In this document: positions 40,659-49,648 of the stretch, in pieces | Position numbering within the stretch: the first letter of the stretch is position 1 | Layout of the letters: every line of letters starts with the position of its first letter | Source: an uncultured Gammaproteobacteria bacterium | GTDB lineage: Bacteria > Patescibacteriota > Microgenomatia > Levybacterales > GWA1-39-11 | Length of the DNA: 64,000 nucleotides | Direction of reading: 5' to 3' | Assembly: GCA_964394645.1 (NCBI GenBank) | Contig: CAYMYC010000001.1 | Location: 117,299 to 181,298, forward strand | Program-made: the position numbers and the translations under genes | Notes under the pieces: model-generated | Database searches by the model: none | The model's input: the letters and a program-made list of their open reading frames with translations, nothing else | Told to the model about the DNA's origin: nothing

Positions 40659-41754
40659 TTTCCTCTTTTGTTTCCTCTACTCCCACTTCTATCATGGGTT
40701 TTTGTGATTCTGATTTTTTCATTACTTCATCAACTATTTTTTTTGCAGTATCTTTATGTTCGGTAAGATATGCTTTTGCCGATTCTCTTCCTTGCCCAAG
40801 CATTAGTTCGCCATATCGTAAGAATGCTCCAGATTTTTGAATTACTCCTGTTTCAATTCCCACATCTAAAATATTACCCTCACGAGAGATTCCGATACCA
40901 CCCATTACGTCGAATTCAGCAACACGAAAAGGTGGAGATACTTTATTTTTTACAACCTTGACGCGCGTTCTATTTCCAATCACTTTATCCCCATCTTTTA
41001 ATGTCTCAATCTTTCTAACATCAAGCCTAATTGATGCGTAAAATTTCAAAGCCATCCCTCCGGTAGTTGTTTCAGGGTTACCAAACATAACTCCAATTTT
41101 TTGCCTAAGCTGATTGGTAAATATGACAATAGTTTTAGATTTTGAAATTGCAGCAGTAAGTTTTCTTAGGGCTTGAGACATAAGCCTTGCTTGCATTCCC
41201 ATAACTGCGTCTCCCATTTCTCCTTCTATTTCAGCACGAGGAACAAGTGCTGCAACAGAGTCAATTACTATTACATCTACTCCTCCCGACCTAATAAGTT
41301 GTTCAGTGATTTCAAGCGCTTGTTCTCCTGTGTCTGGTTGAGAAATAATAAGATCCTCTAGCTTTACGCCAATAGTCTGAGCCCATAATGGGTCAAGTGC
41401 GTGTTCCGCATCTATAAATGCTGCTATTCCCCCAATTTTTTGAGCTTCTGCGATAACTGAAAGGCAAAGAGTAGTTTTCCCTGATGCCTCAGGTCCAAAT
41501 ATTTCAATAATGCGTCCTCGGGGAAATCCCCCAACTCCGAGTGCTAAGTCTAAGGCTAGTGCACCTGTTGGAATTACTTCTATAGCCATTTTTCCTGCCG
41601 AGTCACCAAATTTCATAATGGACCCTTTCCCATATTGTCTTTGAATTTGTTCCATTGCCATATTAATTGCTTGAAGACGTTGGGAGGAGGATGCGGAAGC
41701 GTTTGCTGCAGTGGTTGATAAGCCGTTTGTGGTGTTTGCTTTTGGTTTTGCCAT
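40636..41754 (-). CDS. recA: Recombinase A
   Basis: 372 aa; Walker [11 protein letters not shown] and L1/L2 loops; Thr/Ala-rich N-terminal extension. Confidence 0.95.
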
Positions 41755-41863
41755 ATTCTTTTAATTCTTGTTCTTTTCGAGTTTTATTGTAACAACTTTC
41801 GTATTAATTTCAATCATACTCACTATATCAAAAAGTAGCAAAATATTCATTTCGGTAAAAATT

Positions 41864-41872
41864 TGGTAAAAT
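41864..41872 (+). promoter_or_regulatory. Extended -10 promoter element (TGgTAAAAT) upstream of tRNA-Pro
   Basis: TGGTAAAAT ends 9 nt upstream of the tRNA 5' end. Confidence 0.35.
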
Positions 41873-41878
41873 CACTTG

Positions 41879-43447
41879 TTACGGGATGTAGTATAGTGGT
41901 AGTACGCTGCGCTGGGGGTGCAGTAGTCCGCGTTCGATTCGCGGCATCCCGACACTGAGAGAAGAGCCGGCGGAAAGCTCCGCCGGTGAAAGTCCCGCAA
42001 TCGCGGGACGGATTGAGTCAAAGCCCTTTTTAAAATTGGCGTAAACACAGCCATCCTCTAAAAAGAAGTTCGAGCCGACATGTTTTGCTAGATTTGCCAA
42101 ATCTAGTTGGTTATTTTTTGCGCGCGCTATTTTGTCGCATGACGATGCGACATTTATGAATTCCCTAAGAGGTTCGAGCGAGCGAGAACCTCCCTCCTCC
42201 AAAACCTCTATCTTTTCCTGAATTTTTATCTTTTCTTCAAAGAGTTCATTCTTCTTTCTCTTGTAGTTATCGCCCTCAATGTCCCCCTCAAGATAACTAT
42301 CAAGAAGAATGTCCATCTTCTTATCGAGAGACGAAGCTTCCTCTTTTAATTTTCTCATCCTTACATCCGATAAGCCTTTTTCGGATATTTCATCCCTTTC
42401 TACTAACCCCAGCCACCGGTCGCGCCATGAGGTAGGGATGGAAACGGATAAAACAATTTTTCTTAATTGGTCTTCAAGTTCTTGGGCAGTCACCATTTTT
42501 TGGGAACACGGACCCATCTTTTTGGTACAGCGGTAATAAATATAAGTTGCCGAACGGTTAGTCCCTTTATAAAACTTTACATGCCTTTCGGCAGTTACGG
42601 AAGCACCGCACTCTTTACAGCGAAGAAGACCCAAAAACGTAAAGACCGGAAGCTTACTATTTTGCCTAACTTTTCTATTTAACTTTTCCTGGACTTTATT
42701 GAACAACTCTTTAGAGATGAAAGTCTTGTGGGTCCCGAGATGATACTCGCCGTTGTATTTTAAAATGCCGATGTAGAATTTGTTGGACAATATCTTTCTG
42801 ACTTGGTTAAGGTGTAAAGGCTTTCCGTTTTCCTTTTTTATCCCCAATTTTAAAAAGTAATTTGAAATATCCGTAAAGGTTTTATCCTGTTCGCAAAACA
42901 ACTCAAATGCCCCTTTTATGGCCCGAGCTTCGTTTGGGACTATATCAATGCCTCGAGTCTTCGGGTTGTTGGAATAACCATAGGTAGTCTTCCCAGGCCA
43001 GACGCCATTTCGTATCTTTTGCCGAAGCCCCCTTTTAACATTCTCGCTAAGATTGTCGATGTAATATTTGCTTTGGCCGAAGGCGATATTTAACATGAAC
43101 TTTCCCTGTGGAGTGTTATCAAACCAAAATGTAGGAAACTTTAAATCCTTTAATTTTCCGGTATCAAGCAAATAGATGATCTTGCCCCCGTCAATAGAAT
43201 TTCTTGCAAGTCTGTCCGGATGCCAAGCAAGAATACCACCGGCTCTGCCTCTTTCGATAAGTTGCATGACTTTAGCAAATTTTTCCCGTCCTGGGGCTTT
43301 GGCGGTCTTTGCCTCTTCAATAACTTCGAGGATCTCAAGCTTCTCCCGTTTTGCGAACTCAAAAAGCTCAGCAATTTGCGCTTCAATGGATAAAACCTGC
43401 TTATCGGCTTCGTCTCTTGATTTACGGCAGTAAATTATGTATTTCAT
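41879..43447 (-). CDS. Large serine recombinase (resolvase/invertase catalytic domain + recombinase domain + Zn ribbon + coiled coil)
   Basis: N-terminal YCRKSRDE catalytic-Ser motif; Cys-rich ribbon (CKECG...CTKKMGPC); 522 aa. The last ~55 codons are read through IR1-L and antisense to tRNA-Pro. Confidence 0.85.
   Translation of the reverse strand: MKYIIYCRKSRDEADKQVLSIEAQIAELFEFAKREKLEILEVIEEAKTAKAPGREKFAKVMQLIERGRAGGILAWHPDRLARNSIDGGKIIYLLDTGKLKDLKFPTFWFDNTPQGKFMLNIAFGQSKYYIDNLSENVKRGLRQKIRNGVWPGKTTYGYSNNPKTRGIDIVPNEARAIKGAFELFCEQDKTFTDISNYFLKLGIKKENGKPLHLNQVRKILSNKFYIGILKYNGEYHLGTHKTFISKELFNKVQEKLNRKVRQNSKLPVFTFLGLLRCKECGASVTAERHVKFYKGTNRSATYIYYRCTKKMGPCSQKMVTAQELEDQLRKIVLSVSIPTSWRDRWLGLVERDEISEKGLSDVRMRKLKEEASSLDKKMDILLDSYLEGDIEGDNYKRKKNELFEEKIKIQEKIEVLEEGGSRSLEPLREFINVASSCDKIARAKNNQLDLANLAKHVGSNFFLEDGCVYANFKKGFDSIRPAIAGLSPAELSAGSSLSVGMPRIERGLLHPQRSVLPLYYIP
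41882..41952 (+). tRNA. tRNA-Pro (anticodon GGG), hand-folded
   Basis: Cloverleaf: acceptor CGGGATG/CATCCCG, D-arm GTAT-AGTGGTA-GTAC, anticodon stem CTGCG/TGCAG with loop CTGGGGG (G37), T-arm CCGCG-TTCGATT-CGCGG, discriminator A; CCA not encoded. Confidence 0.8.
41950..42052. repeat. IR1-L: ~103-bp inverted repeat arm (near-exact partner at 43487-43590)
   Basis: Reverse complement of 43487-43590 (1 mismatch, 1-nt indel). Contains internal GC hairpins CCGGCGG-aaagct-CCGCCGG and GTCCCGC-aatc-GCGGGAC. Confidence 0.9.
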
Positions 43448-43486
43448 GGCAGTTAAAATTTTCGCGTTTATCTCCTCTTCTTTTTT

Positions 43487-43590
43487 GGCTTGTGTTTACG
43501 CCAATTTCAAAAAGGGCTTTGACTCAATCCGTCCCGCGATTGCGGGACTTTCACCGGCGGAGCTTTCCGCCGGCTCTTCTCTCAGTGTCG
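43487..43590. repeat. IR1-R: inverted copy of IR1-L, 40 nt upstream of the recombinase start
   Basis: Direct alignment to the reverse complement of 41950-42052. Confidence 0.9.
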
Positions 43591-43647
43591 AGATCTATGA
43601 AAAAGTTAGAACTCTTCTTTGTTAGCTCGGCCGCTTCGCGGCCTCGC
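43587..43647. repeat. IR2-L: 61-bp inverted repeat arm abutting IR1-R through a shared GTCG
   Basis: Exact reverse complement of 48923-48984; contains GGCCGC-ttc-GCGGCC hairpin. Confidence 0.9.
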
Positions 43648-43876
43648 CAAAACATGTCGGCTCGAATTTGAAACGCGAAAATTTTTTTCAATTTAAAATG
43701 GCCGCTCTGGTTGAACACAACAGGATCTCTCCAATTGTCCAAAGCGGCCATCAAAAAAGAGATCCAAAAATGTTGTGTTCGATTTTAATATACCAGTTTC
43801 ACGAGTTTAATCAACTAAGAGTATCTATAACAAATATATAGTTTTGCTACAATTAAAAAAGATGTGAACATCTAGT

Positions 43877-45691
43877 ATGAAATTTCCCATTAAGAAATTG
43901 TCCGAGTTTAGAACAACTATTAAATCATCAAAGAGATTGCTGGGGTTACTTTGGAACATTGATAAATGGCTATTTACAGGAAATTTGATTTCAGTAAGTG
44001 TTCCAGCAATTATTCCTTTTGTTAACGCTTATATCTATAAGCTTATTATTGATTTAATTATTGCGGGAGTCGGTAGTACTGACTTTGACTATCAGCAACT
44101 TTTTTGGCTTATAGCCATGAGAGTAGGCACACTTTTTATACAAGATGCTGCTTTTTCTGCACAAAACTATTTTGAAATGCTTCTTTGGACGAAATTTCCT
44201 GTGCATCTTTATCAAGCTGTTCTTACAAAACTATCAGATTTAGATGTTCAATACTTTGAAGATAGTTCTTTTAAAGATAGATTGGAAAAGGTAAGAGAGG
44301 CATATGCATGGAGGCCGTTAAATATGCTCTCACATCTGTTCTACAGCTTCCAAGGCGTATTACAAGTTTTAATTGCACTAGTTGCAATAGCAACCCTTAA
44401 TTGGTTTTTAATCTTTTTAATCCTTCTTGTGGCTATCCCAACATTTGTGAATCAAACTCACTACGCAAAAATCACTTGGGGTGTATGGCAGGATAACTCT
44501 CCCTATAGAAAGAAGTTTTGGTACTTATCAGATTTAATTCAGGGGGGACAAAGTGTGAAAGAGATAAAAATTTTTCAAATGGCCCCAAAGTTTTTGTCTG
44601 AACTGACTAACATCTATAACAAGTTTGTTAAAGACAATGCAAAAGTAGCTAAAAAGCAACTTCGTACAAATATCTTATTTAACATGCTTGGTACGGGTGT
44701 ATATATTGGAATTGAGATCTTTATTATTCTTGCTGCCGTTGCAAAGAGGATTTCTATAGGGGATATAACCTACTTTACAGCTGTAGTTAGTAATTTCCAA
44801 AATGGAGTCAATGGATTATTCCGTAATACTTCTCAATTGTTTGACCAAAGTCTTTATGTTCAGGAGATGTTTGAAGTTTTAGATATTAAGTCAAAAATAA
44901 CCCAACCTGCTAATGCTGTAAAAATAGACATACATGAAGGACCTAAAATTGAGTTCAGAAATGTAAGTTTTATTTATCCCGGGGCCGGAGAAAAAATCCT
45001 CAATGATTTTTCCCTGACAATTGAACCGGGTCAGAAGATTGCGTTTGTTGGAGAAAATGGCGCTGGTAAAACAACAATTGTGAAATTATTAGCCCGATTT
45101 TATGATGTAAACGAAGGGGAAATCTTAGTAAATGGCATTAACCTTAAAGAACTTGATTTACCAACTTGGTATAAAACTTTAGGGGTTCTCTTTCAAGACT
45201 TTATTAGGTATGAGTACCCATTTCACGAGAATATATACTTTGGAAAGATTTTTGAGCCTGAAAATATTGAGGAAATTAAGCATGCTGCAAAATTGGCAGG
45301 AGCAGATACCGTAGCTTCACAGTTACCTAAGGGCTACGACCAAATGCTTGGAAAGACTTTTGAGGGAGGGATTGATTTATCTGCAGGCCAATGGCAAAAA
45401 GTGGCGCTAGCAAGAGGTTTTCTACGAGATGCCCCTATTCTAATATTAGATGAGCCAACGGCAGCAATTGACGCGAAAGCGGAAGCAGAGATATTTGATA
45501 GGGTGGAAAGGTTATCTAAAGATAAAACTGTAATTATAATTTCCCATAGATTTTCTACCGTAAGAAATGCCGATAAGATTTACGTGATAGAGAAAGGTAA
45601 AATAAAAGAAGATGGCAGCCACGAACAGCTTATGAGGGAAAATGGAACTTATGCAACCCTATTTAACCTTCAAGCAAAAGGTTATAAATAA
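43877..45691 (+). CDS. ABC transporter, fused permease/ATPase (type I exporter)
   Basis: 6 TM N-terminal domain; NBD with Walker A GENGAGKTT, signature LSAGQ, Walker B ILILDE. Confidence 0.9.
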   Translation: MKFPIKKLSEFRTTIKSSKRLLGLLWNIDKWLFTGNLISVSVPAIIPFVNAYIYKLIIDLIIAGVGSTDFDYQQLFWLIAMRVGTLFIQDAAFSAQNYFEMLLWTKFPVHLYQAVLTKLSDLDVQYFEDSSFKDRLEKVREAYAWRPLNMLSHLFYSFQGVLQVLIALVAIATLNWFLIFLILLVAIPTFVNQTHYAKITWGVWQDNSPYRKKFWYLSDLIQGGQSVKEIKIFQMAPKFLSELTNIYNKFVKDNAKVAKKQLRTNILFNMLGTGVYIGIEIFIILAAVAKRISIGDITYFTAVVSNFQNGVNGLFRNTSQLFDQSLYVQEMFEVLDIKSKITQPANAVKIDIHEGPKIEFRNVSFIYPGAGEKILNDFSLTIEPGQKIAFVGENGAGKTTIVKLLARFYDVNEGEILVNGINLKELDLPTWYKTLGVLFQDFIRYEYPFHENIYFGKIFEPENIEEIKHAAKLAGADTVASQLPKGYDQMLGKTFEGGIDLSAGQWQKVALARGFLRDAPILILDEPTAAIDAKAEAEIFDRVERLSKDKTVIIISHRFSTVRNADKIYVIEKGKIKEDGSHEQLMRENGTYATLFNLQAKGYK

Positions 45692-45735
45692 ACTTTTTTT
45701 CCCAAAAGACAATTAACCCATCGAGTGGCGGCACA

Positions 45736-46275
45736 CTATTTTCTATTTCTTGAGGCATATCGACGAAGAGATTCACTACCGACAAGGGCACCCATGAAGC
45801 TTACTGATGCTAGAAAGGATGCTGCAGCTCTATTGTGAGAATCTTTCCCAACCTCTTTACTATCATCTTTCTTAAGATCCTCCTCCAGATACTTTAATAC
45901 CATGTCTCTTTTTTCCTCTACTGGAAGTTCTTCGAAGCCATCTAGTTTTTCTTTGTTCTCTTCGTAGAAGTCCTTTACTTGATCTGGTATCGCTTGCTCT
46001 AATCCTTCAAAAGTAAACCCTTGCAAAGGGAGGGGGTCAACATCGTCAACTTGATCTTTGATTTTAGCTTCATTTCTTGCGTCTCCATATGCTACTGAAT
46101 CGTAAGTAACTGATGGAAGGAATGTTGCCATAGATGCAAGACCCGCTATACCCATTGCCGCATTTAGACCCTTCCACCCACGATGCTCATTTCTTGGGGA
46201 TTGTTCCCTCAACGTGTCTTCTTGACCCAACTGATCTTGCTGTTCTTCTTCCATATAGTAAAGTGAGTTTAACAA
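45736..46275 (-). CDS. Hypothetical acidic protein
   Basis: 179 aa, Glu/Asp-rich; no family assignable; inside the IR2-bounded cargo. Confidence 0.45.
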   Translation of the reverse strand: MLNSLYYMEEEQQDQLGQEDTLREQSPRNEHRGWKGLNAAMGIAGLASMATFLPSVTYDSVAYGDARNEAKIKDQVDDVDPLPLQGFTFEGLEQAIPDQVKDFYEENKEKLDGFEELPVEEKRDMVLKYLEEDLKKDDSKEVGKDSHNRAAASFLASVSFMGALVGSESLRRYASRNRK

Positions 46276-46378
46276 CTCTCAAATTTTCTGTCAAATTTGT
46301 GTAACCCATCAAAAAGGCTGACTGAGTTGGATAAATAGACTTTTGACTTTTAAATTAGCAGTGTGATTCAATAGGTTA

Positions 46379-47068
46379 ATGGATGGTGACATAGAAAGTT
46401 CTCCTCAATCGGTGATTACATCACTTGATGTCAGCGAAAATAAAGCCAACTTCATGCATGAAGACCAAAAAGAAGCACCCGAAGCTCCAGAGTTTGGTAT
46501 TAAACTCTCTCCTGGTATACGATTGTTTCATGGAAGGTCGTCAACCGAAGACATTGATATCTGGCCCCTTCCGGTCGCCAAAAGAACGGTCAATGGTCTT
46601 GGGTTTTATTGCACAACCGACCCAGCAATTGCAAATCCATACGCTAAGATAGATCTAAGAAATGAATCTGCCGCCCGGGTTTATCCTCTTACACCGAAAG
46701 AAGAATTAACGCTTTTTAACGGTTTTATAAAAGATAAAGGTACTTTTTCAAAATATCTAGCAGAGAAAATTTTTGATGAAAATGATGAGAGAAAAGAAAA
46801 GTTTTTAGAAGAGATTAGAAGACTTAGGGAGATGAATAAAGATGGATTCGTTTTCAGCGATAATGTATTAGGAGTAATTCTGTCTTTCGTTGATGAGGAA
46901 AAAGCAAAAGATCTTGAGGAAAAGAAAATTCTTGAAAATGAAGTTCTGAAAAAGGTAGGTTATGATGGTAAAGGATGCGAGGAAAACGGTGTTATGGATG
47001 ATACAATTCTGATTTTTGATCCTGGAAAATTAGAAACGGAATTTAATGCAGAGCAAAAAGCCGCATAG
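46379..47068 (+). CDS. Hypothetical protein
   Basis: 229 aa; no confident family; weak RLFHGRSST motif noted. Confidence 0.5.
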   Translation: MDGDIESSPQSVITSLDVSENKANFMHEDQKEAPEAPEFGIKLSPGIRLFHGRSSTEDIDIWPLPVAKRTVNGLGFYCTTDPAIANPYAKIDLRNESAARVYPLTPKEELTLFNGFIKDKGTFSKYLAEKIFDENDERKEKFLEEIRRLREMNKDGFVFSDNVLGVILSFVDEEKAKDLEEKKILENEVLKKVGYDGKGCEENGVMDDTILIFDPGKLETEFNAEQKAA

Positions 47069-47122
47069 CAATCATAGAGTGAATTCCACTAAAATAGATT
47101 CATTAGATCGAGAAGTAAATAT

Positions 47123-47506
47123 ATGGAAAAACGAATTGGCACAGTAGGATTCATTGTTAATAACAATAAAGTTTTGTTAGCACATATTCAATACCCAGAG
47201 GGCAAAAAATTATGGAATGGGATCGGAGGATTTGTTAATAAAGGAGAAAAACTTGAGGACGCCTTAATAAGAGAAATCAGCGAAGAAACATATATACAAG
47301 TTAGCAAAGACGAAGTGCGTTTGGTGAAAGAATTGGACGAGGATATCAGACTTTTAATTTTTAAAATTAATAACTGGAAAGGAGAACTTAAAATTAAAGA
47401 CTCATCAATTAAGGAGTTAAGGTGGTTTAAATTTGATGAAATTCCATTTTCAGAAATGCATGATGGAAATGAAAAGTGGCTACCTGACTTATTAAAAACA
47501 CCATAG
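47123..47506 (+). CDS. Nudix hydrolase
   Basis: Nudix box GGFVNKGEKLEDALIREISEETYI. Confidence 0.8.
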   Translation: MEKRIGTVGFIVNNNKVLLAHIQYPEGKKLWNGIGGFVNKGEKLEDALIREISEETYIQVSKDEVRLVKELDEDIRLLIFKINNWKGELKIKDSSIKELRWFKFDEIPFSEMHDGNEKWLPDLLKTP

Positions 47507-47540
47507 TTACATTGTAATTTCGTATACTAATATTAATACA

Positions 47541-48338
47541 ATGAAAATTCATTTTATTGGATTATCATGTTTTCTTATTGAAAATGCCGCTGGCTTTCGA
47601 ATACTAGTTGATCCTTTTGAGGATAACCCCGAGTGGACGTTGGGTCCTATATTTCCAAAGGAATTTAGCAGTAAACCCTTTGGAACAAATATTGTATTGA
47701 TGTCTGAAACTGATGCTGATCATGCAAGGGCTCCACATGAATGGCAACAAAATGCACCTATTGTAAAGCCTGACAATAATCCTTTTCCAAATTTAAATTT
47801 GAGTGGTACATTAGTGCATGAATGGAATGGTGAAGCTTGCATTGCCTGGCATTATACTATTGATGGTATACGGCTTGCTCATTTTTCAGACCATGCTCAC
47901 CCGTTGACCGTAGAACAACTTACAGAAATAGGAAATCCCGATATTATCTTTTACCCACTTCCAAAAGTATCGTGGGACGATCAAGAAGCGTTTAATATCA
48001 TAAGAGAAGATATTAGCAAGCTCAAACCAAAAATTGTAATTTGGGCACATTTTATAGCACCTAAAAATATGCCTTCAGTGGATGATAAAGAAGCGCTCAG
48101 ATCATATTTTATCCAATATTTTAAAGACAACGCATCGACTAACTTGGGATACAAAGGTGAAGACAGTTTTATGGAATTAGGAAATATGATATACAGTGGT
48201 TTCAAACTCACAAATGAATTAAACGGAAAGATAATGGAAGCACCTACGCTGGAGCTTGACCAAACAACAGTTGATGCTTTTCAGCAACCAACTCCATTTT
48301 TCTTCACCAGTATGCTTGCTACTTCAAAAACTGAATAA
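47541..48338 (+). CDS. MBL-fold-like hydrolase (paralog of 8207-8869)
   Basis: N-terminal beta-lactamase-fold pattern (FLIENAAGFRILVDP..ETDADHA). Confidence 0.55.
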   Translation: MKIHFIGLSCFLIENAAGFRILVDPFEDNPEWTLGPIFPKEFSSKPFGTNIVLMSETDADHARAPHEWQQNAPIVKPDNNPFPNLNLSGTLVHEWNGEACIAWHYTIDGIRLAHFSDHAHPLTVEQLTEIGNPDIIFYPLPKVSWDDQEAFNIIREDISKLKPKIVIWAHFIAPKNMPSVDDKEALRSYFIQYFKDNASTNLGYKGEDSFMELGNMIYSGFKLTNELNGKIMEAPTLELDQTTVDAFQQPTPFFFTSMLATSKTE

Positions 48339-48339
48339 T

Positions 48340-48920
48340 ATCAAAACAAGTCATAAGCCTGTGGTGATCCACATCGGTTTTTTGGATTTTTCTTTTCTTG
48401 GGCGGCATCCACCGCCCCCGCCCGCATGGAATTGCGCCCTAAAAAGAGAAAAATACTTTACTGGTAGCCAATGAATTAGTAGGAACTATACAAAGTATTT
48501 TTCTCCCACACGAGCCCCGCGAGAATTTGTCTTGTTAAAAGAGAACGCGGGGCGAGTCAGTAGGTGTCTTCTTAATGGTTTTAAACAGGAAGGGACTAAA
48601 TAAAAGTCGGCGGGGGCGAATAAGCGGACACCCCTCCGACGGCGCTTCCTTTTTAAATGGAAATAATTTTTCGGAAGAGACTGTATTAAGGTTTTAGAAC
48701 TGGCAAAACTTTGGCGAGTTGCGCCTTAGTGCAACCTGCGCCCAAAGGAAGGGGTCGCCGCCACAATATCTTGGGTGGGTTGGGTTTTGTAGGATAAGAC
48801 TCACGGTTTGTTTTATATTCTTTTTTAAAGGGAGTACAATAATCCAATATTTATAATTTGTCCGCGTAGGGAGGGATTTTGGGACAATGACAATTTCTTT
48901 TTTCTTCGCGCGCAAAAAAT
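48340..48920. other. GC-rich hairpin-dense noncoding region (candidate structured RNA or recombination region)
   Basis: Multiple perfect GC stems in AT-rich context: GGGCGG-catcca-CCGCCC, GCCCCGCG...CGCGGGGC, GTCGGCGGGG...CCCCTCCGAC, GTTGC...GCAAC. No credible ORF. Confidence 0.5.
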
Positions 48921-48922
48921 AA

Positions 48923-48984
48923 CCTAGCGAGGCCGCGAAGCGGCCGAGCTAACAAAGAAGAGTTCTAACTTTTTCATAGATCTC
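48923..48984. repeat. IR2-R: inverted copy of IR2-L closing the 5.3-kb cargo segment
   Basis: Exact reverse complement of 43587-43647. Confidence 0.9.
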
Positions 48985-49051
48985 GACTGAATAAAATATG
49001 AGGAAATGATTTTCAAGAACCTCTTCAGTAAGTGTCTGGTATACTGAGAAA

Positions 49052-49648
49052 ATGAATTTGTTTACTTTTTTGCTTCAGAGCAATATCCAAGTAATTATAG
49101 GAGTGCATCTAGTAGGTGTAGTAATAGGATTTGGAGGCGCAATAATCACAGATATACTTTTTTTAAAATTCGTAAGAAATGGCAAAATCGTCAAAAGTGA
49201 GGTGGGTGTTCTTGTAACTATGTCAAAAATAATTTGGGCAGGCATTTTGATAATTGCTGTTACCGGTCTTTTTATTTTACTTTCAGATGTAGAACGCTAT
49301 ACTCATTCAGCAAAATTTTTACTTAAAATGTTGGTGGTTTGGGTAATAGTTATTAATGGATTAATCTTAAATTTTGTTATAACGCCTACATTACCTCTTG
49401 TCAATTTTGGGAAAATAAGTAATTCAAAGGATAAGACAAATAAAATAAGAAGCTTAGTATTTATAACAGGTGCAGTTTCCGCAACTTCATGGTGGACTGT
49501 TTTTATATTAGGAATGTTACGTTTTTCTCCTGTGTCTTTTACAGTTCTTCTGAGTATCTATTTGTTAATATTGGCAGGTGCAATTATAGGGAGCCTTGTA
49601 TTAAATAGTTTACTTGCAAAAGGCATTATCAAATATTCATCTTTGTAG
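49052..49648 (+). CDS. Integral membrane protein (hypothetical)
   Basis: 198 aa, about 5 TM helices. Confidence 0.5.
   Translation: MNLFTFLLQSNIQVIIGVHLVGVVIGFGGAIITDILFLKFVRNGKIVKSEVGVLVTMSKIIWAGILIIAVTGLFILLSDVERYTHSAKFLLKMLVVWVIVINGLILNFVITPTLPLVNFGKISNSKDKTNKIRSLVFITGAVSATSWWTVFILGMLRFSPVSFTVLLSIYLLILAGAIIGSLVLNSLLAKGIIKYSSL

What the first reader, a model, noticed from the sequence alone, without database searches (positions are those of the whole stretch)
43877..48338. Cargo module: ABC exporter + divergent hypothetical pair + Nudix + MBL hydrolase
The IR2-bounded segment carries a 604-aa fused ABC exporter, a convergent acidic 179-aa protein, a 229-aa hypothetical with no detectable family (weak RLFHGRSST motif), a Nudix hydrolase and an MBL-fold protein. 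Nudix and MBL phosphoesterases paired with unknown small proteins and an exporter on a mobile element recall nucleotide-signal or toxin processing/export conflict modules. None of these functions is expected in the conserved ribosomal neighbourhood, and the two hypotheticals are candidates for novel function.
Basis: inference. Interest (0 to 1): 0.55.

Follow-up and report, generated by a model that had tools for sequence, protein, structure and literature searches.

The report
Cargo of a tRNA-Pro integrative element
The five genes are real and are the cargo of a 7-kb mobile element that a serine integrase inserted at the end of a tRNA-Pro gene; they look like a mixed bag of accessory genes rather than a proven conflict system, and two of them have no detectable relatives.

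Summary
Observation confirmed. All five ORFs sit at the stated coordinates, and p179 and p229 score as coding. They lie inside a perfect 61-nt inverted repeat (43587-43647 / 48927-48987).

The segment is cargo of a 7,034-nt element (about 41954-48987) driven by a large serine recombinase. Three results support this:
- Seven contigs of the same organism carry the empty site, recA-tRNA-Pro joined directly to the 198-aa gene, at the junction I had predicted (GGCATCCCGAC|TGAATAAAAT).
- A 99.7 % identical copy abuts a different host's tRNA-Pro(GGG).
- Most related recombinases checked show the same layout: tRNA | IR1 - recombinase - IR1'.IR2 - variable cargo - IR2' | flank.

Interpretation partly supported:
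- The ABC protein is a generic ABCB-like exporter.
- The Nudix is MutT/MTH1-like, not ADP-ribose type.
- The MBL belongs to a large CPR family found mostly in core chromosomal contexts.
- p179 has no homologue in a 5.8-billion-protein word-seeded search. p229 has none there or in an exhaustive HMMER search of 1.84 billion representatives.
- p229 has only sub-threshold hits to ADP-ribosyltransferase families (ART-PolyVal E=1.3e-3, DUF3990 E=0.03) and a PARP-like FHGRS...GFYCT motif. Its AlphaFold model failed.

No test links the five genes into one system. The most interesting things here are the element's unexplained double inverted-repeat design and a covarying pseudoknot motif.

The parts
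41882..41953 (+). tRNA-Pro(GGG); its last 4 nt (CGAC, 41950-41953) are the crossover core. This is the left half of attB and the outer side of attL.
   Evidence: ARAGORN; Rfam 59 bits; empty-site contigs end their left match at 41953; L091 diverges from the window exactly here.
41879..43447 (-). Large serine recombinase (522-aa ORF). The conserved protein ends near residue 465. The tail is the translation of IR1-L and of the antisense tRNA.
   Evidence: Resolvase + Recombinase + Zn_ribbon_recom; PHROG 95 integrase 6e-76; most relatives match residues 1-465 only; GC3 0.46 against 0.25-0.33 for the other genes scored.
41946..42049 (.). IR1-L (arm 'A'), the P' arm of attL. Contains two GC-rich hairpins.
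   Evidence: 104 nt, 98 % complementary to 43491-43594; the same arrangement occurs in 63 relatives.
43491..43594 (.). IR1-R (arm A'), immediately upstream of the recombinase start codon.
43587..43647 (.). IR2-L (arm 'D'). Together with IR1-R it forms an intact, inverted copy of the predicted attP (A'|GTCG|D).
   Evidence: junction logic, confirmed by the empty site.
43688..43792 (+). Conserved structured non-coding motif (three helices, H-type pseudoknot topology), part of the element backbone.
   Evidence: Alignment A5; 88 % of cells paired against 70 % in shuffles; 18 of 31 pairs have changes on both sides. Covariance model R1 finds it in 11 relatives, in L091, and as a second copy in L018. 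No Rfam match.
43877..45691 (+). ABC exporter, fused TMD-NBD half-transporter (ABCB/MsbA/Sav1866-like), no C39 peptidase domain.
   Evidence: Pfam ABC_tran, ABC_membrane; NCBIfam MsbA-like, below every curated cut-off; PDB TM287/288, Sav1866, MsbA. Walker A GENGAGKTT, signature LSAGQ and Walker B ILILDE are visible in the translation.
45736..46275 (-). Orphan acidic protein (179 aa from TTG, 172 aa from ATG 46254). Two weakly hydrophobic stretches (about 35-58 and 148-170) flank an acidic middle.
   Evidence: No family in any library; only itself found among 5.8e9 proteins; coding score +0.35; KD19 maximum 1.39.
46379..47068 (+). Orphan 229-aa acidic cytosolic protein; possible H-Y-D ADP-ribosyltransferase fold (candidates H51, Y77, D155/D161).
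   Evidence: Only itself found; ART-PolyVal E=1.3e-3 (20 bits against a cut-off of 31.2) and DUF3990 E=0.033 on residues 48-163; AF2 pLDDT 35; no PDB hit.
47123..47506 (+). Small Nudix hydrolase, MutT/MTH1-like, with a near-canonical Nudix box (G-x5-E-x7-REISEETYI).
   Evidence: PF00293 3.4e-18; PDB MTH1/NUDT1 about 1e-11; 46 % identical homologue in the L105 island.
47541..48338 (+). MBL-fold hydrolase of a CPR-wide family (Lactamase_B_3). Variant metal motif S-E-x-D-x-D-H.
   Evidence: more than 100 homologues at 36-76 % identity; alignment A3; AF2 pLDDT 94; Foldseek TM0207, cAMP-bound MBL 7e3w, ElaC, YhfI.
48339..48926 (+). 588-nt GC-rich non-coding stretch with a terminator-like hairpin at 48360-48373. 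Its last 20 nt (48907-48926) repeat an 18-nt piece of the recombinase 3' end.
   Evidence: ORFs here score as non-coding in all frames; RNA fold z = -4.3 on + and -2.8 on -; 73 % match to the equivalent place in L025.
48927..48987 (.). IR2-R (arm D'), the P arm of attR. Ends in the core CGAC (48984-48987), followed by host DNA.
   Evidence: empty-site contigs resume at 48980.

Best explanation
SHOWN. Window 41954-48987 is a 7,034-nt integrative element. A large serine recombinase inserted it at the 3' end of tRNA-Pro(GGG) by conservative recombination at a CGAC core, between attB (tRNA | TGAATAAAAT...) and an element attP (D' | A). The element has a recombinase compartment flanked by IR1 and a cargo compartment flanked by IR2. 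The flagged genes fill the cargo compartment.

INFERRED. The cargo is a collection of accessory genes, not one dedicated machine:
- a homodimeric ABCB-type exporter;
- a convergent orphan acidic protein that may be membrane-associated;
- a probable three-gene operon of an orphan protein (possibly an H-Y-D ADP-ribosyltransferase), a MutT/MTH1-like Nudix pyrophosphatase and an MBL-fold, phosphodiesterase-like hydrolase, ending at a hairpin terminator.

The most likely role is small-molecule or nucleotide detoxification and export that benefits the carrier cell (antibiotic-resistance-like). Homologues of the MBL, ABC and Nudix genes recur together on other CPR mobile islands beside GNAT, APH and kinase genes. 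The MBL was probably captured from a chromosomal copy next to an integration site.
For: Element and boundaries:
- The empty site occurs in 7 contigs, at exactly the junction predicted from the three att-like sites.
- L091 (GCA_041920255.1) is 99.7 % identical over window 46282-41911. Identity stops at the tRNA 3' end (41947), and a different tRNA-Pro(GGG), Cu-oxidase_4 and a PCD gene only 77 % identical follow.
- The recombinase has all three LSR domains.
- 63 relatives have IR1. In 52 of them it abuts the 3' end of an antisense tRNA. 31 have both IR1 and IR2 enclosing 0.9-7.1 kb.
- In L014 the element sits exactly between tRNA-Val and tRNA-Phe, which are adjacent in L012.

Cargo is variable. 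The 31 related elements carry HTH proteins, R-M systems, deformylase, a P-type ATPase, RadC and a reverse transcriptase. None has the window's genes, apart from weak ABC hits elsewhere in 5 loci (24-30 % identity).

Gene identities.

Recurrence: L105 has MBL 63 % + ABC 37 % + Nudix 46 %, with GNATs, APH, Ham1, ArdC and Replic_Relax. L101 has MBL 69 % + ABC 38 %, with an LSR, TraG and Replic_Relax.

Operon structure: gaps of 54 and 34 nt, and a terminator-like hairpin at 48360.

Capture: L103 has a 74 % MBL homologue without inverted repeats next to Cu-oxidase_4 and PCD, which is the attB neighbourhood in L091's host.

Codon usage of the cargo is host-like.
Against: - No experiment or conserved gene neighbourhood ties any cargo gene to a substrate.
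- The two orphans make up about a quarter of the coding cargo and are uncharacterised.
- The detoxification reading rests on two islands (L101, L105) and on generic family membership.
- The ART-clan hits on p229, together with an adjacent Nudix and a phosphodiesterase-like MBL, fit an NAD/ADP-ribose system equally well.
- The MBL family's mostly core contexts suggest a housekeeping role rather than resistance.
- Capture by imprecise excision is a conjecture from one locus.
Confidence: 0.6

Rival explanations
1. NAD+/ADP-ribose conflict module. p229 is an H-Y-D ADP-ribosyltransferase toxin or effector. The Nudix and the MBL phosphodiesterase process ADP-ribose or nucleotide products, or act as antidote. 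p179 is an immunity or membrane partner. The ABC protein exports a product or the effector.
For: The only family signals for p229 are two ART-clan Pfam families on the same stretch. The FHGRS and GFYCT motifs resemble the HGS/YFA motifs of the H-Y-[EDQ] clade (PMC7955679). ART-PolyVal is an H-Y-D family linked to polymorphic toxins and toxin-antitoxin systems on mobile elements (PMC5512222). p229, Nudix and MBL are co-directional with short gaps. The MBL's structural neighbours include a cAMP-bound MBL and phosphodiesterases. The Nudix hits the PADLOC candidate PDC-S07 at 2.8e-13.
Against: The ART hits are below Pfam's cut-off (20 against 31.2 bits). AF2 gave no fold, and there is no PDB or PARP1 similarity. 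The Nudix is MutT/MTH1-like; ADP-ribose-type models score only E=0.013. The MBL family is mostly chromosomal and core. The ABC protein lacks any secretion-specific domain. No homologous gene cluster exists to show linkage.
Confidence: 0.2
2. Phase-variable invertible cassette. IR2 and IR1 are sites for recombinase-catalysed inversion that switches expression of the cargo or of the recombinase (Hin/shufflon-like).
For: Perfect or near-perfect inverted repeats flank both compartments and share a core with the att sites. The Logan contig L003 joins the MBL end through D' to arm A. The repeats stay 93-100 % identical (mostly 98-100 %) in the relatives that have them.
Against: L003 is uninformative: a k=31 graph contains that path whether or not inversion occurs. 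In every relative where it can be read, the recombinase points towards the tRNA (52 of 63 loci). The backbone markers always sit at the IR2 arm next to the recombinase: the ~70-80-aa ORF in 14 elements (14 cargo ORFs match HTH_3) and the pseudoknot motif in 11 relatives plus L091, apart from the second copy in L018. If inversion were at equilibrium, about half should be flipped. Canonical large serine integrases do not recombine attP with attL or attR (established knowledge of phiC31/Bxb1-type enzymes).
Confidence: 0.1
3. Assembly artefact: the inverted repeats and the cargo placement are a chimeric join in a metagenome-assembled genome.
For: The window comes from a metagenome assembly, and repeats of 61-104 nt can confuse assemblers.
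Against: The same module was recovered in at least 10 independent sequencing runs and in a second NCBI assembly. The same architecture appears in about 60 independent MAGs, including complete genomes. The empty-site junction is clean to the base.
Confidence: 0.01

Closest known systems
Large-serine-recombinase integrative elements and prophages (phiC31, Bxb1, A118 integrases; SCCmec Ccr; XisF; LSR-bearing tycheposons)
   Same: Resolvase + Recombinase + Zn-ribbon recombinase. Conservative insertion at a short common core with no long direct repeats. attP next to the int gene. Variable cargo. A GTTC-type motif lies 4 nt further from the core in the P arm (22 nt) than in the B arm (18 nt). This resembles the known roughly 5-bp outward shift of the zinc-ribbon domain on attP (inference from the sequence, plus established LSR structural knowledge).
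   Different: tRNA 3' ends are the targets, across 19 tRNA species. The integrated element keeps an intact inverted attP between recombinase and cargo, so both compartments are flanked by 60-200-nt, nearly perfect inverted repeats. No RDF gene is recognisable. The elements are tiny, 2.6-9 kb. I found no description of this layout in three literature searches, which proves nothing beyond that library.
Serine-invertase switches (Hin/Gin/Cin, shufflons) and the yeast 2-micron plasmid FLP/IR design
   Same: The recombinase gene lies inside one inverted-repeat-bounded segment, with a second such segment adjacent. An excised circle would carry two inverted copies of one site separating two unique regions.
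   Different: The arms are 3-6 times longer than hix/gix sites. The enzyme is a large integrase-type protein. Orientation is fixed across relatives. There is no evidence of flipping.
ART-PolyVal / Tox-ART-HYD2 and DUF3990 ADP-ribosyltransferase families (Pfam clan ADP-ribosyl)
   Same: p229 residues 48-163 give the only family signals. H (FHGRS), Y (GFYCT) and D (KDGFVFSD) appear in the expected order. It sits on a mobile element, as these families typically do (PMC5512222).
   Different: The score is below the gathering threshold. There are no homologues from which to build a profile and no structural confirmation. p229 is a stand-alone 229-aa protein with a 45-residue acidic N-terminus and a helical C-terminal extension.
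TM0207-type MBL hydrolases (PF13483; PDB 1vjn) and phosphodiesterase-type MBLs (7e3w, YhfI, ElaC/RNase Z, UlaG)
   Same: MBL fold in a confident model (pLDDT 94); profile hit to 1vjn at 2.9e-12; conserved D/H metal ligands.
   Different: The first two histidines of HxHxDH are E/H and D in this family (S-E-x-D-x-D-H). Identity to any solved structure is 8-18 %. No characterised member.
MutT/MTH1 (NUDT1) Nudix hydrolases
   Same: Best PDB and NCBIfam similarity, size (127 aa), near-canonical Nudix box.
   Different: All scores are far below the equivalog cut-offs; substrate unknown.

Membership tests
Large serine recombinase integrative element | Recombinase with Resolvase catalytic domain + Recombinase domain + zinc-ribbon domain | tested here: met
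   PF00239 1.2e-19, PF07508 4.6e-15, PF13408 5.7e-8; PHROG 95 integrase 6e-76
Large serine recombinase integrative element | Discrete insertion relative to an empty attB, with junctions sharing only a short core | tested here: met
   7 empty-site contigs; the junction GGCATCCCGAC|TGAATAAAAT equals the predicted attB; the core CGAC is present at 41950, 43587 (as GTCG) and 48984
Large serine recombinase integrative element | The same element at the same kind of site in another genome (mobility) | tested here: met
   L091 is 99.7 % identical up to the 3' end of a divergent tRNA-Pro(GGG); the flanking PCD gene is only 77 % identical
Large serine recombinase integrative element | Recombination directionality factor / excised circular form | not testable with these tools
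   No recognisable RDF. The D'|A junction seen in L003 cannot be told apart from the internal inverted attP in a k=31 assembly.
ABC exporter (type IV, ABCB-like half transporter) | N-terminal ABC_membrane TMD fused to an NBD with Walker A, signature and Walker B motifs | tested here: met
   PF00664 (weak, E=1.4e-3) + PF00005 1e-28; full-length alignment to TM288, Sav1866, MsbA; GENGAGKTT, LSAGQ, ILILDE in the translation
Bacteriocin/peptide-cleaving ABC exporter or type I secretion ABC | N-terminal C39 peptidase or C39-like domain; curated equivalog score | tested here: not met
   No peptidase domain in Pfam; all NCBIfam scores are far below their cut-offs
Nudix hydrolase | Nudix box G-x5-E-x7-R-E-U-x-E-E-x-G-U | tested here: met
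   GFVNKGEKLEDALIREISEETYI: every catalytic position is present and only the penultimate G is Y; PF00293 66 bits against a cut-off of 21
ADP-ribose pyrophosphatase subfamily of Nudix | Best similarity to ADPRase/NudF/YffH models | tested here: not met
   TIGR00052 E=0.013; the best matches are MutT and MTH1
Metallo-beta-lactamase fold hydrolase | MBL alpha-beta/beta-alpha fold | tested here: met
   AF2 pLDDT 94.3; Foldseek probability 1.00 to 1vjn, 7e3w, 1zkp
Metallo-beta-lactamase fold hydrolase | Canonical H-x-H-x-D-H metal motif | tested here: not met
   The motif is S-E-T-D-A-D-H (residues 55-61). D58, D60 and H61 are invariant in 22 homologues, and E56 is H only in the three most distant ones. 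It is a family-wide variant, not decay.
ADP-ribosyltransferase, H-Y-[EDQ] clade (ART-PolyVal / DUF3990) | Score above the Pfam gathering threshold | tested here: not met
   ART-PolyVal 20.0 bits against 31.2; DUF3990 14.3 against 32.2
ADP-ribosyltransferase, H-Y-[EDQ] clade (ART-PolyVal / DUF3990) | H in strand 1, Y in strand 2, D/E in strand 5 of a split beta-sheet fold | tested here: inconclusive
   Candidate H51, Y77 and D155/D161 lie in the aligned stretch 48-163, but the residue-level alignment was not available. AF2 pLDDT 35 gave no fold. PDB and PARP1 comparisons were not significant.
Known anti-phage defence system (PADLOC) | Specific match of the gene set to a defined system | tested here: not met
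   Only generic ATPase hits for the ABC protein and the single-gene candidate PDC-S07 for the Nudix; nothing for p179, p229 or the MBL
Site-specific invertible segment (Hin/shufflon type) | Both orientations present in populations or relatives | tested here: not met
   Orientation of both compartments is constant in relatives; short-k contigs are uninformative

The most novel reading that the evidence does not exclude
Two things together. (1) The element may represent an undescribed class of tRNA-targeting serine-integrase elements. Their integrated form keeps an intact inverted attP, so recombinase and cargo each sit between long, perfect inverted repeats, and their backbone carries a dedicated pseudoknotted RNA. 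The design could let a single-stranded or flipped intermediate present a duplex attP, or could regulate integrase and cargo. (2) Its cargo may include the founding member of a new H-Y-D ADP-ribosyltransferase lineage (p229), which works with the adjacent Nudix and MBL phosphodiesterase, and possibly p179 and the ABC exporter, as an NAD/ADP-ribose-based conflict or resistance system.
Probability: 0.12. Interest if true: 0.7.

Novelty: new variant of a known kind. Interest (0 to 1): 0.45.

Why it matters
For the finding as written, the result is mostly clarifying. A suspicious gene cluster next to ribosomal and recA genes is strain-variable cargo of a small mobile element, and three of its five genes belong to ordinary families. 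Two things are worth keeping.

First, the element family is abundant in CPR/Patescibacteria and occurs in some other phyla. These are organisms with tiny genomes and few described mobile elements. The elements carry R-M systems, efflux genes and other accessory genes to tRNA genes. Their conserved double inverted-repeat layout and the covarying RNA motif have no explanation I could find. If the layout reflects a new integration or regulation mechanism, it would bear on how CPR bacteria exchange genes and on the use of serine integrases as tools.

Second, p229 and p179 have no detectable sequence relatives: p229 in 1.84 billion cluster representatives searched exhaustively, p179 in a word-seeded search of 5.8 billion proteins. 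Both are nonetheless expressed-looking genes that travel between hosts, which makes them good candidates for function discovery.

Tried and rejected
- AlphaFold2 of p229 from a single sequence: pLDDT 35, so no fold search was attempted.
- phmmer of p229 against PDB at E<=10: only chance hits.
- Homologue searches for p229 and p179: self only, so no profile, neighbourhood or dN/dS analysis was possible.
- Rfam on the whole window and, at permissive thresholds, on 41700-49100: only the tRNA. The Acido-1 hit (E=0.039) is just the IR hairpins.
- Scan of JGI metagenome contigs for the IR2 arm: no match, so alternative junctions could not be examined in long-k assemblies.
- Contig L003 (D' joined to A) as evidence for inversion or for a circular form: rejected, because a k=31 de Bruijn graph contains that path in any case.
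- Reconstructing a history for the short repeats B (22 nt) and C (18 nt), which flank a 19-nt palindrome in the recombinase 3' end and recur at the inner edges of the cargo segment. I tried inversions at each repeat pair and an insertion of a 'cargo circle'. None restores a simple ancestor. The GTCGGCTCG core of B is conserved in relatives, so these may be binding motifs rather than scars.
- Mechanisms considered for the internal inverted attP: a 2-micron-like flip, a folded single-stranded attP, and intermolecular capture of an empty attB. Each predicts products (flipped isomers, hairpin-ended or inverted-dimer chromosomes) that are not seen in the assemblies.
- tblastn of the cargo proteins against 80 related elements: no shared cargo.
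- Recombinase relatives in IMG/VR viral contigs: one weak hit, so there is no support for a phage origin.
- Three literature searches for the architecture: nothing relevant.

Full report
**1. What is there**

The ORF list reproduces the finding exactly:

| Gene | Coordinates | Strand | Length |
|---|---|---|---|
| ABC | 43877-45691 | + | 604 aa |
| p179 | 45736-46275 | - | 179 aa (172 aa from the ATG at 46254 that gene callers use) |
| p229 | 46379-47068 | + | 229 aa |
| Nudix | 47123-47506 | + | 127 aa |
| MBL | 47541-48338 | + | 265 aa |

Pfam confirms ABC_tran/ABC_membrane, NUDIX and Lactamase_B_3, and gives nothing above threshold for the two hypotheticals. I trained a codon-usage log-odds score on 17 long ORFs outside the region. 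It is positive for p179 (+0.35) and p229 (+0.36) only in the annotated frame, as for recA and the other cargo genes. The small ORFs in 48256-48915 are negative in every frame. Both hypotheticals are therefore real genes, and 48339-48926 is non-coding.

**2. The segment is cargo of a mobile element**

Left of the cluster is a 522-aa ORF with the three domains of a large serine recombinase (LSR). Its 3' end runs antisense through tRNA-Pro(GGG), 41882-41953.

Repeat finding gave two adjoining inverted repeats:
- IR1: 41946-42049 / 43491-43594, 104 nt, 98 % complementary, around the recombinase.
- IR2: 43587-43647 / 48927-48987, 61 nt, 100 % complementary, around the cargo.

Reading the three junctions shows a shared core:
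- tRNA..CGAC..A
- A'..GTCG..D
- D'..CGAC..flank

From this I predicted an attP (D'|A) and an empty attB, GGCATCCCGAC|TGAATAAAATATGAGG.

I then looked up the flanking 198-aa protein in public assemblies. Seven contigs (L109-L114, L118; Logan and JGI samples) are 99.0-100 % identical to the window on both sides and join 41953 directly to 48980, with exactly that sequence.

Independently, contig L091 (GCA_041920255.1) is 99.7 % identical to window 46282-41911 (p172, ABC, the IR region, the recombinase). Identity ends at the tRNA 3' end. What follows is a different tRNA-Pro(GGG), a Cu-oxidase_4 gene and a PCD gene only 77 % identical to the window's.

The element is therefore about 41954-48987 (7,034 nt). 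It is present or absent among strains of one species, and it occurs in a second host at the same tRNA. At least ten sequencing runs carry the identical five-gene module.

**3. The layout is a family trait**

A scan of one genome per species found more than 560 relatives of the recombinase. I examined the best 80 (42-67 % identity), almost all from Patescibacteria/CPR MAGs, with a few from other phyla.
- 63 have an IR1 of 45-136 nt, mostly 98-100 % identical, around the recombinase gene.
- In 52 of these the outer arm abuts the 3' end of an antisense tRNA gene. Nineteen tRNA species are used.
- 31 loci have enough upstream sequence to show an IR2 that starts within a few bases of the inner IR1 arm and encloses 0.9-7.1 kb.
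- In L014 the whole structure lies exactly between tRNA-Val(TAC) and tRNA-Phe(GAA), which are adjacent in L012. The outer IR arms are therefore the element ends.

The inner junction (IR1-R.IR2-L) is thus an intact, inverted copy of attP that is kept inside the integrated element.

The P arm carries a GTTCGAA-like motif that resembles the tRNA T-arm. In the window it lies 22 nt from the core in D' and 18 nt from the core in the tRNA. This resembles the known outward shift of the zinc-ribbon domain on attP half-sites of LSRs. That is an inference from established structural knowledge, not a test.

Orientation is constant. The recombinase always points at the tRNA. The backbone markers always sit next to the inner IR2 arm: a ~70-80-aa ORF (HTH_3 in the Pfam census), or in the closest relatives a structured motif. 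I therefore found no evidence that the repeats act as an inversion switch. Contig L003, which joins D' to A, is uninformative because a k=31 graph contains that path regardless.

I could not explain why the family keeps two long, near-perfect inverted repeats. The ideas I tried are listed under Tried and rejected. Three literature searches found no description of it.

**4. The cargo genes one by one**

*ABC.* A TMD-NBD half-transporter with Walker A (GENGAGKTT), signature (LSAGQ) and Walker B (ILILDE). It aligns over its full length with TM288, Sav1866 and MsbA. It is below every NCBIfam equivalog cut-off and has no C39 peptidase domain. It is a generic exporter.

*Nudix.* The Nudix box is near-canonical. 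The closest solved relatives are MTH1/NUDT1 and MutT (about 1e-11). ADP-ribose-type models are marginal.

*MBL.*
- More than 100 homologues at 36-76 % identity, essentially all from CPR.
- The metal motif is a family-wide variant, S-E/H-x-D-x-D-H.
- The profile hits only TM0207 (1vjn) in the PDB.
- A confident model (pLDDT 94) resembles TM0207, then a cAMP-bound MBL, ElaC/RNase Z, YhfI, Igni18 and UlaG, at 8-18 % identity. Phosphodiesterase-like is plausible but unspecific.

MBL neighbourhoods:
- Homologues at 53-55 % and at 72 % identity sit in core contexts: rplJ-rplL, RuvA/rpoB, RmuC/AddA.
- The 74 % homologue in L103 is chromosomal, without inverted repeats, beside Cu-oxidase_4 and PCD. 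That is the neighbourhood of the attB used in L091's host. The MBL is also the cargo gene nearest attR. Capture by imprecise excision is therefore a reasonable conjecture.
- Two homologues are on other mobile islands together with homologues of the window's ABC (37-38 %) and, in one, its Nudix (46 %). Their neighbours there are GNATs, APH, Ham1, a CPT-like kinase, ArdC, Replic_Relax, TraG and an LSR.

*p179.* No family in Pfam, NCBIfam, PADLOC or PHROGs, and no homologue among 5.8e9 proteins. It is acidic (net -13), with two weakly hydrophobic stretches at about 35-58 and 148-170 (KD19 1.3-1.4, below a firm transmembrane call).

*p229.*
- No homologue in the word-seeded search or in an exhaustive phmmer of 1.84e9 representatives.
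- No transmembrane segment.
- The only signals are ART-PolyVal (E=1.3e-3; 20 bits against a cut-off of 31.2) and DUF3990 (E=0.033) on residues 48-163.
- Both families belong to the ADP-ribosyl clan (PMC7955679). ART-PolyVal has an H-Y-D active site and relatives in polymorphic toxins and toxin-antitoxin systems (PMC5512222).
- p229 has FHGRS (H51), GFYCT (Y77) and KDGFVFSD (D155/D161) in that order.
- AF2 without an alignment failed (pLDDT 35). PDB and PARP1 comparisons were not significant.
- I put the ART fold at roughly 35-40 %.

**5. Is it one system?**

Evidence for linkage is thin. p229, Nudix and MBL are co-directional with gaps of 54 and 34 nt, followed by a terminator-like hairpin at 48360. 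MBL, ABC and Nudix homologues recur on two other islands.

Evidence against:
- The cargo of 31 related elements (74 ORFs) is a varied mix: 14 small HTH proteins, type I/II R-M, TdeIII, S24/LexA, deformylase, a P-type ATPase, RadC, a reverse transcriptase and a GDSL lipase. None shares the window's genes.
- PADLOC recognises no system.
- The MBL and Nudix families are ordinary.

My best reading is mixed accessory cargo with a small-molecule or nucleotide detoxification and export flavour. The NAD/ADP-ribose conflict module remains possible (about 0.2) and hinges on p229.

**6. Other features inside the element**

(a) Window 43688-43792 (+), just inside IR2-L, holds a conserved motif with three helices in pseudoknot topology.
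- On 11 sequences, 88 % of cells pair against 70 % in shuffles and at most 50 % in slid controls.
- 18 of 31 pairs change on both sides.
- Helices 1 and 3 are 98-100 % paired.
- G-U pairs fit only the + strand.
- A covariance model finds the motif in 11 relatives, in L091, and as a second copy in L018. Rfam has no match.
- It is not consistently upstream of a cargo gene, so it belongs to the backbone.

(b) 48339-48926 is GC-rich and non-coding, folds better than shuffles (z -4.3 on +), and has a weak counterpart at the same place in L025.

(c) Short pieces of the recombinase 3' end (B, 22 nt; C, 18 nt), which flank a 19-nt palindrome there, recur at the inner edges of the cargo segment. This is unexplained.

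**7. Verdict**

- The 'conflict module' part is unproven and, for three of the five genes, not favoured.
- The two hypotheticals remain orphans, one with a weak ART signature.
- The gene cluster itself is an ordinary kind of thing: cargo of an integrative element.
- The element family's architecture and RNA motif are the parts that look new.

Noticed in passing
window 41946-42049, 43491-43647, 48927-48987; relatives L011-L090: Conserved double inverted-repeat architecture: tRNA | IR1 - recombinase - IR1'.IR2 - cargo - IR2' | flank. IR1 occurs in 63 of the 80 relatives examined; IR1+IR2 occurs in 31. Arms are 45-200 nt, mostly 98-100 % identical. The inner junction is an intact inverted attP. 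Orientation of both compartments is fixed. No mechanism found.
   Followed up: partly
window 43688-43792 (+); L011 9639-9742, L012 9598-9705, L014 9566-9675 and others: New covarying structured motif (three helices, pseudoknot topology; G-U pairs fit the + strand only) next to the internal attP, in the closest subfamily of elements. No Rfam family. Not consistently a leader of any cargo gene.
   Followed up: yes
window 48339-48926: 588-nt GC-rich non-coding stretch between the MBL gene and IR2-R. Several strong hairpins, RNA fold z = -4.3 on the + strand, and a 73 % match to the equivalent position of element L025 (5460-5625). Possibly a second backbone RNA or a decayed gene.
   Followed up: partly
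window 42066-42126, 43648-43669, 48907-48924: A 19-nt palindrome (ctagatttgccaaatctag, 42088-42106) lies inside the recombinase 3' end. It is flanked by a 22-nt and an 18-nt segment that recur, inverted, at the two inner edges of the cargo segment. The GTCGGCTCG core of the 22-mer is conserved in relatives at both places. At 48907 the copy reads as an alternative recombinase C-terminus, ARAKNNLARPRSGRANKEEF*.
   Followed up: partly
window 41879-42050: The recombinase ORF runs through IR1-L and antisense through the whole tRNA-Pro gene, so its last ~55 residues are translated att/tRNA sequence. In L091 the same gene is 551 aa because the host tRNA differs. The protein's C-terminus therefore depends on the integration site.
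   Followed up: partly
L091 4400-4560: Beyond the 5' end of the host tRNA-Pro, away from the element, in the second host, there are three or four tandem copies of a fragment containing CCGTTAAACTACCCCCCG (the tRNA 5' end, read antisense) with a ~50-nt spacer. These may be scars of earlier recombination events at this tRNA.
   Followed up: no
L026 13018-15342; L043 11444-18078; L066 11426-15631: In three relatives a second IR2-like/IR1-like pair of repeats starts directly at the outer IR1 arm of the first element, where a tRNA would be expected. This suggests tandem or nested arrays of these elements.
   Followed up: no
L103 261-3416 compared with L091 4330-5663: A 74 % identical MBL homologue is chromosomal (no repeats) beside Cu-oxidase_4 and PCD, the same neighbourhood that flanks the tRNA-Pro attB in L091's host. 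This fits capture of the MBL gene by imprecise excision.
   Followed up: partly
window 41879-43447: The recombinase gene has GC3 0.46 and a near-zero host codon score. The cargo genes have host-like GC3 (0.27-0.33) and codon scores. Backbone and cargo therefore seem to have different histories.
   Followed up: no
L011 7810-9591 and 1-7200: The closest relative has the same recX-recA-tRNA-Pro-recombinase synteny (recA 80 % identical) but a different and larger cargo. It includes a 593-aa ATPase with an OLD/Gabija-like look (judged from its sequence only) and a sugar-modification gene set. Its far IR2 arm lies beyond the 10 kb fetched.
   Followed up: no
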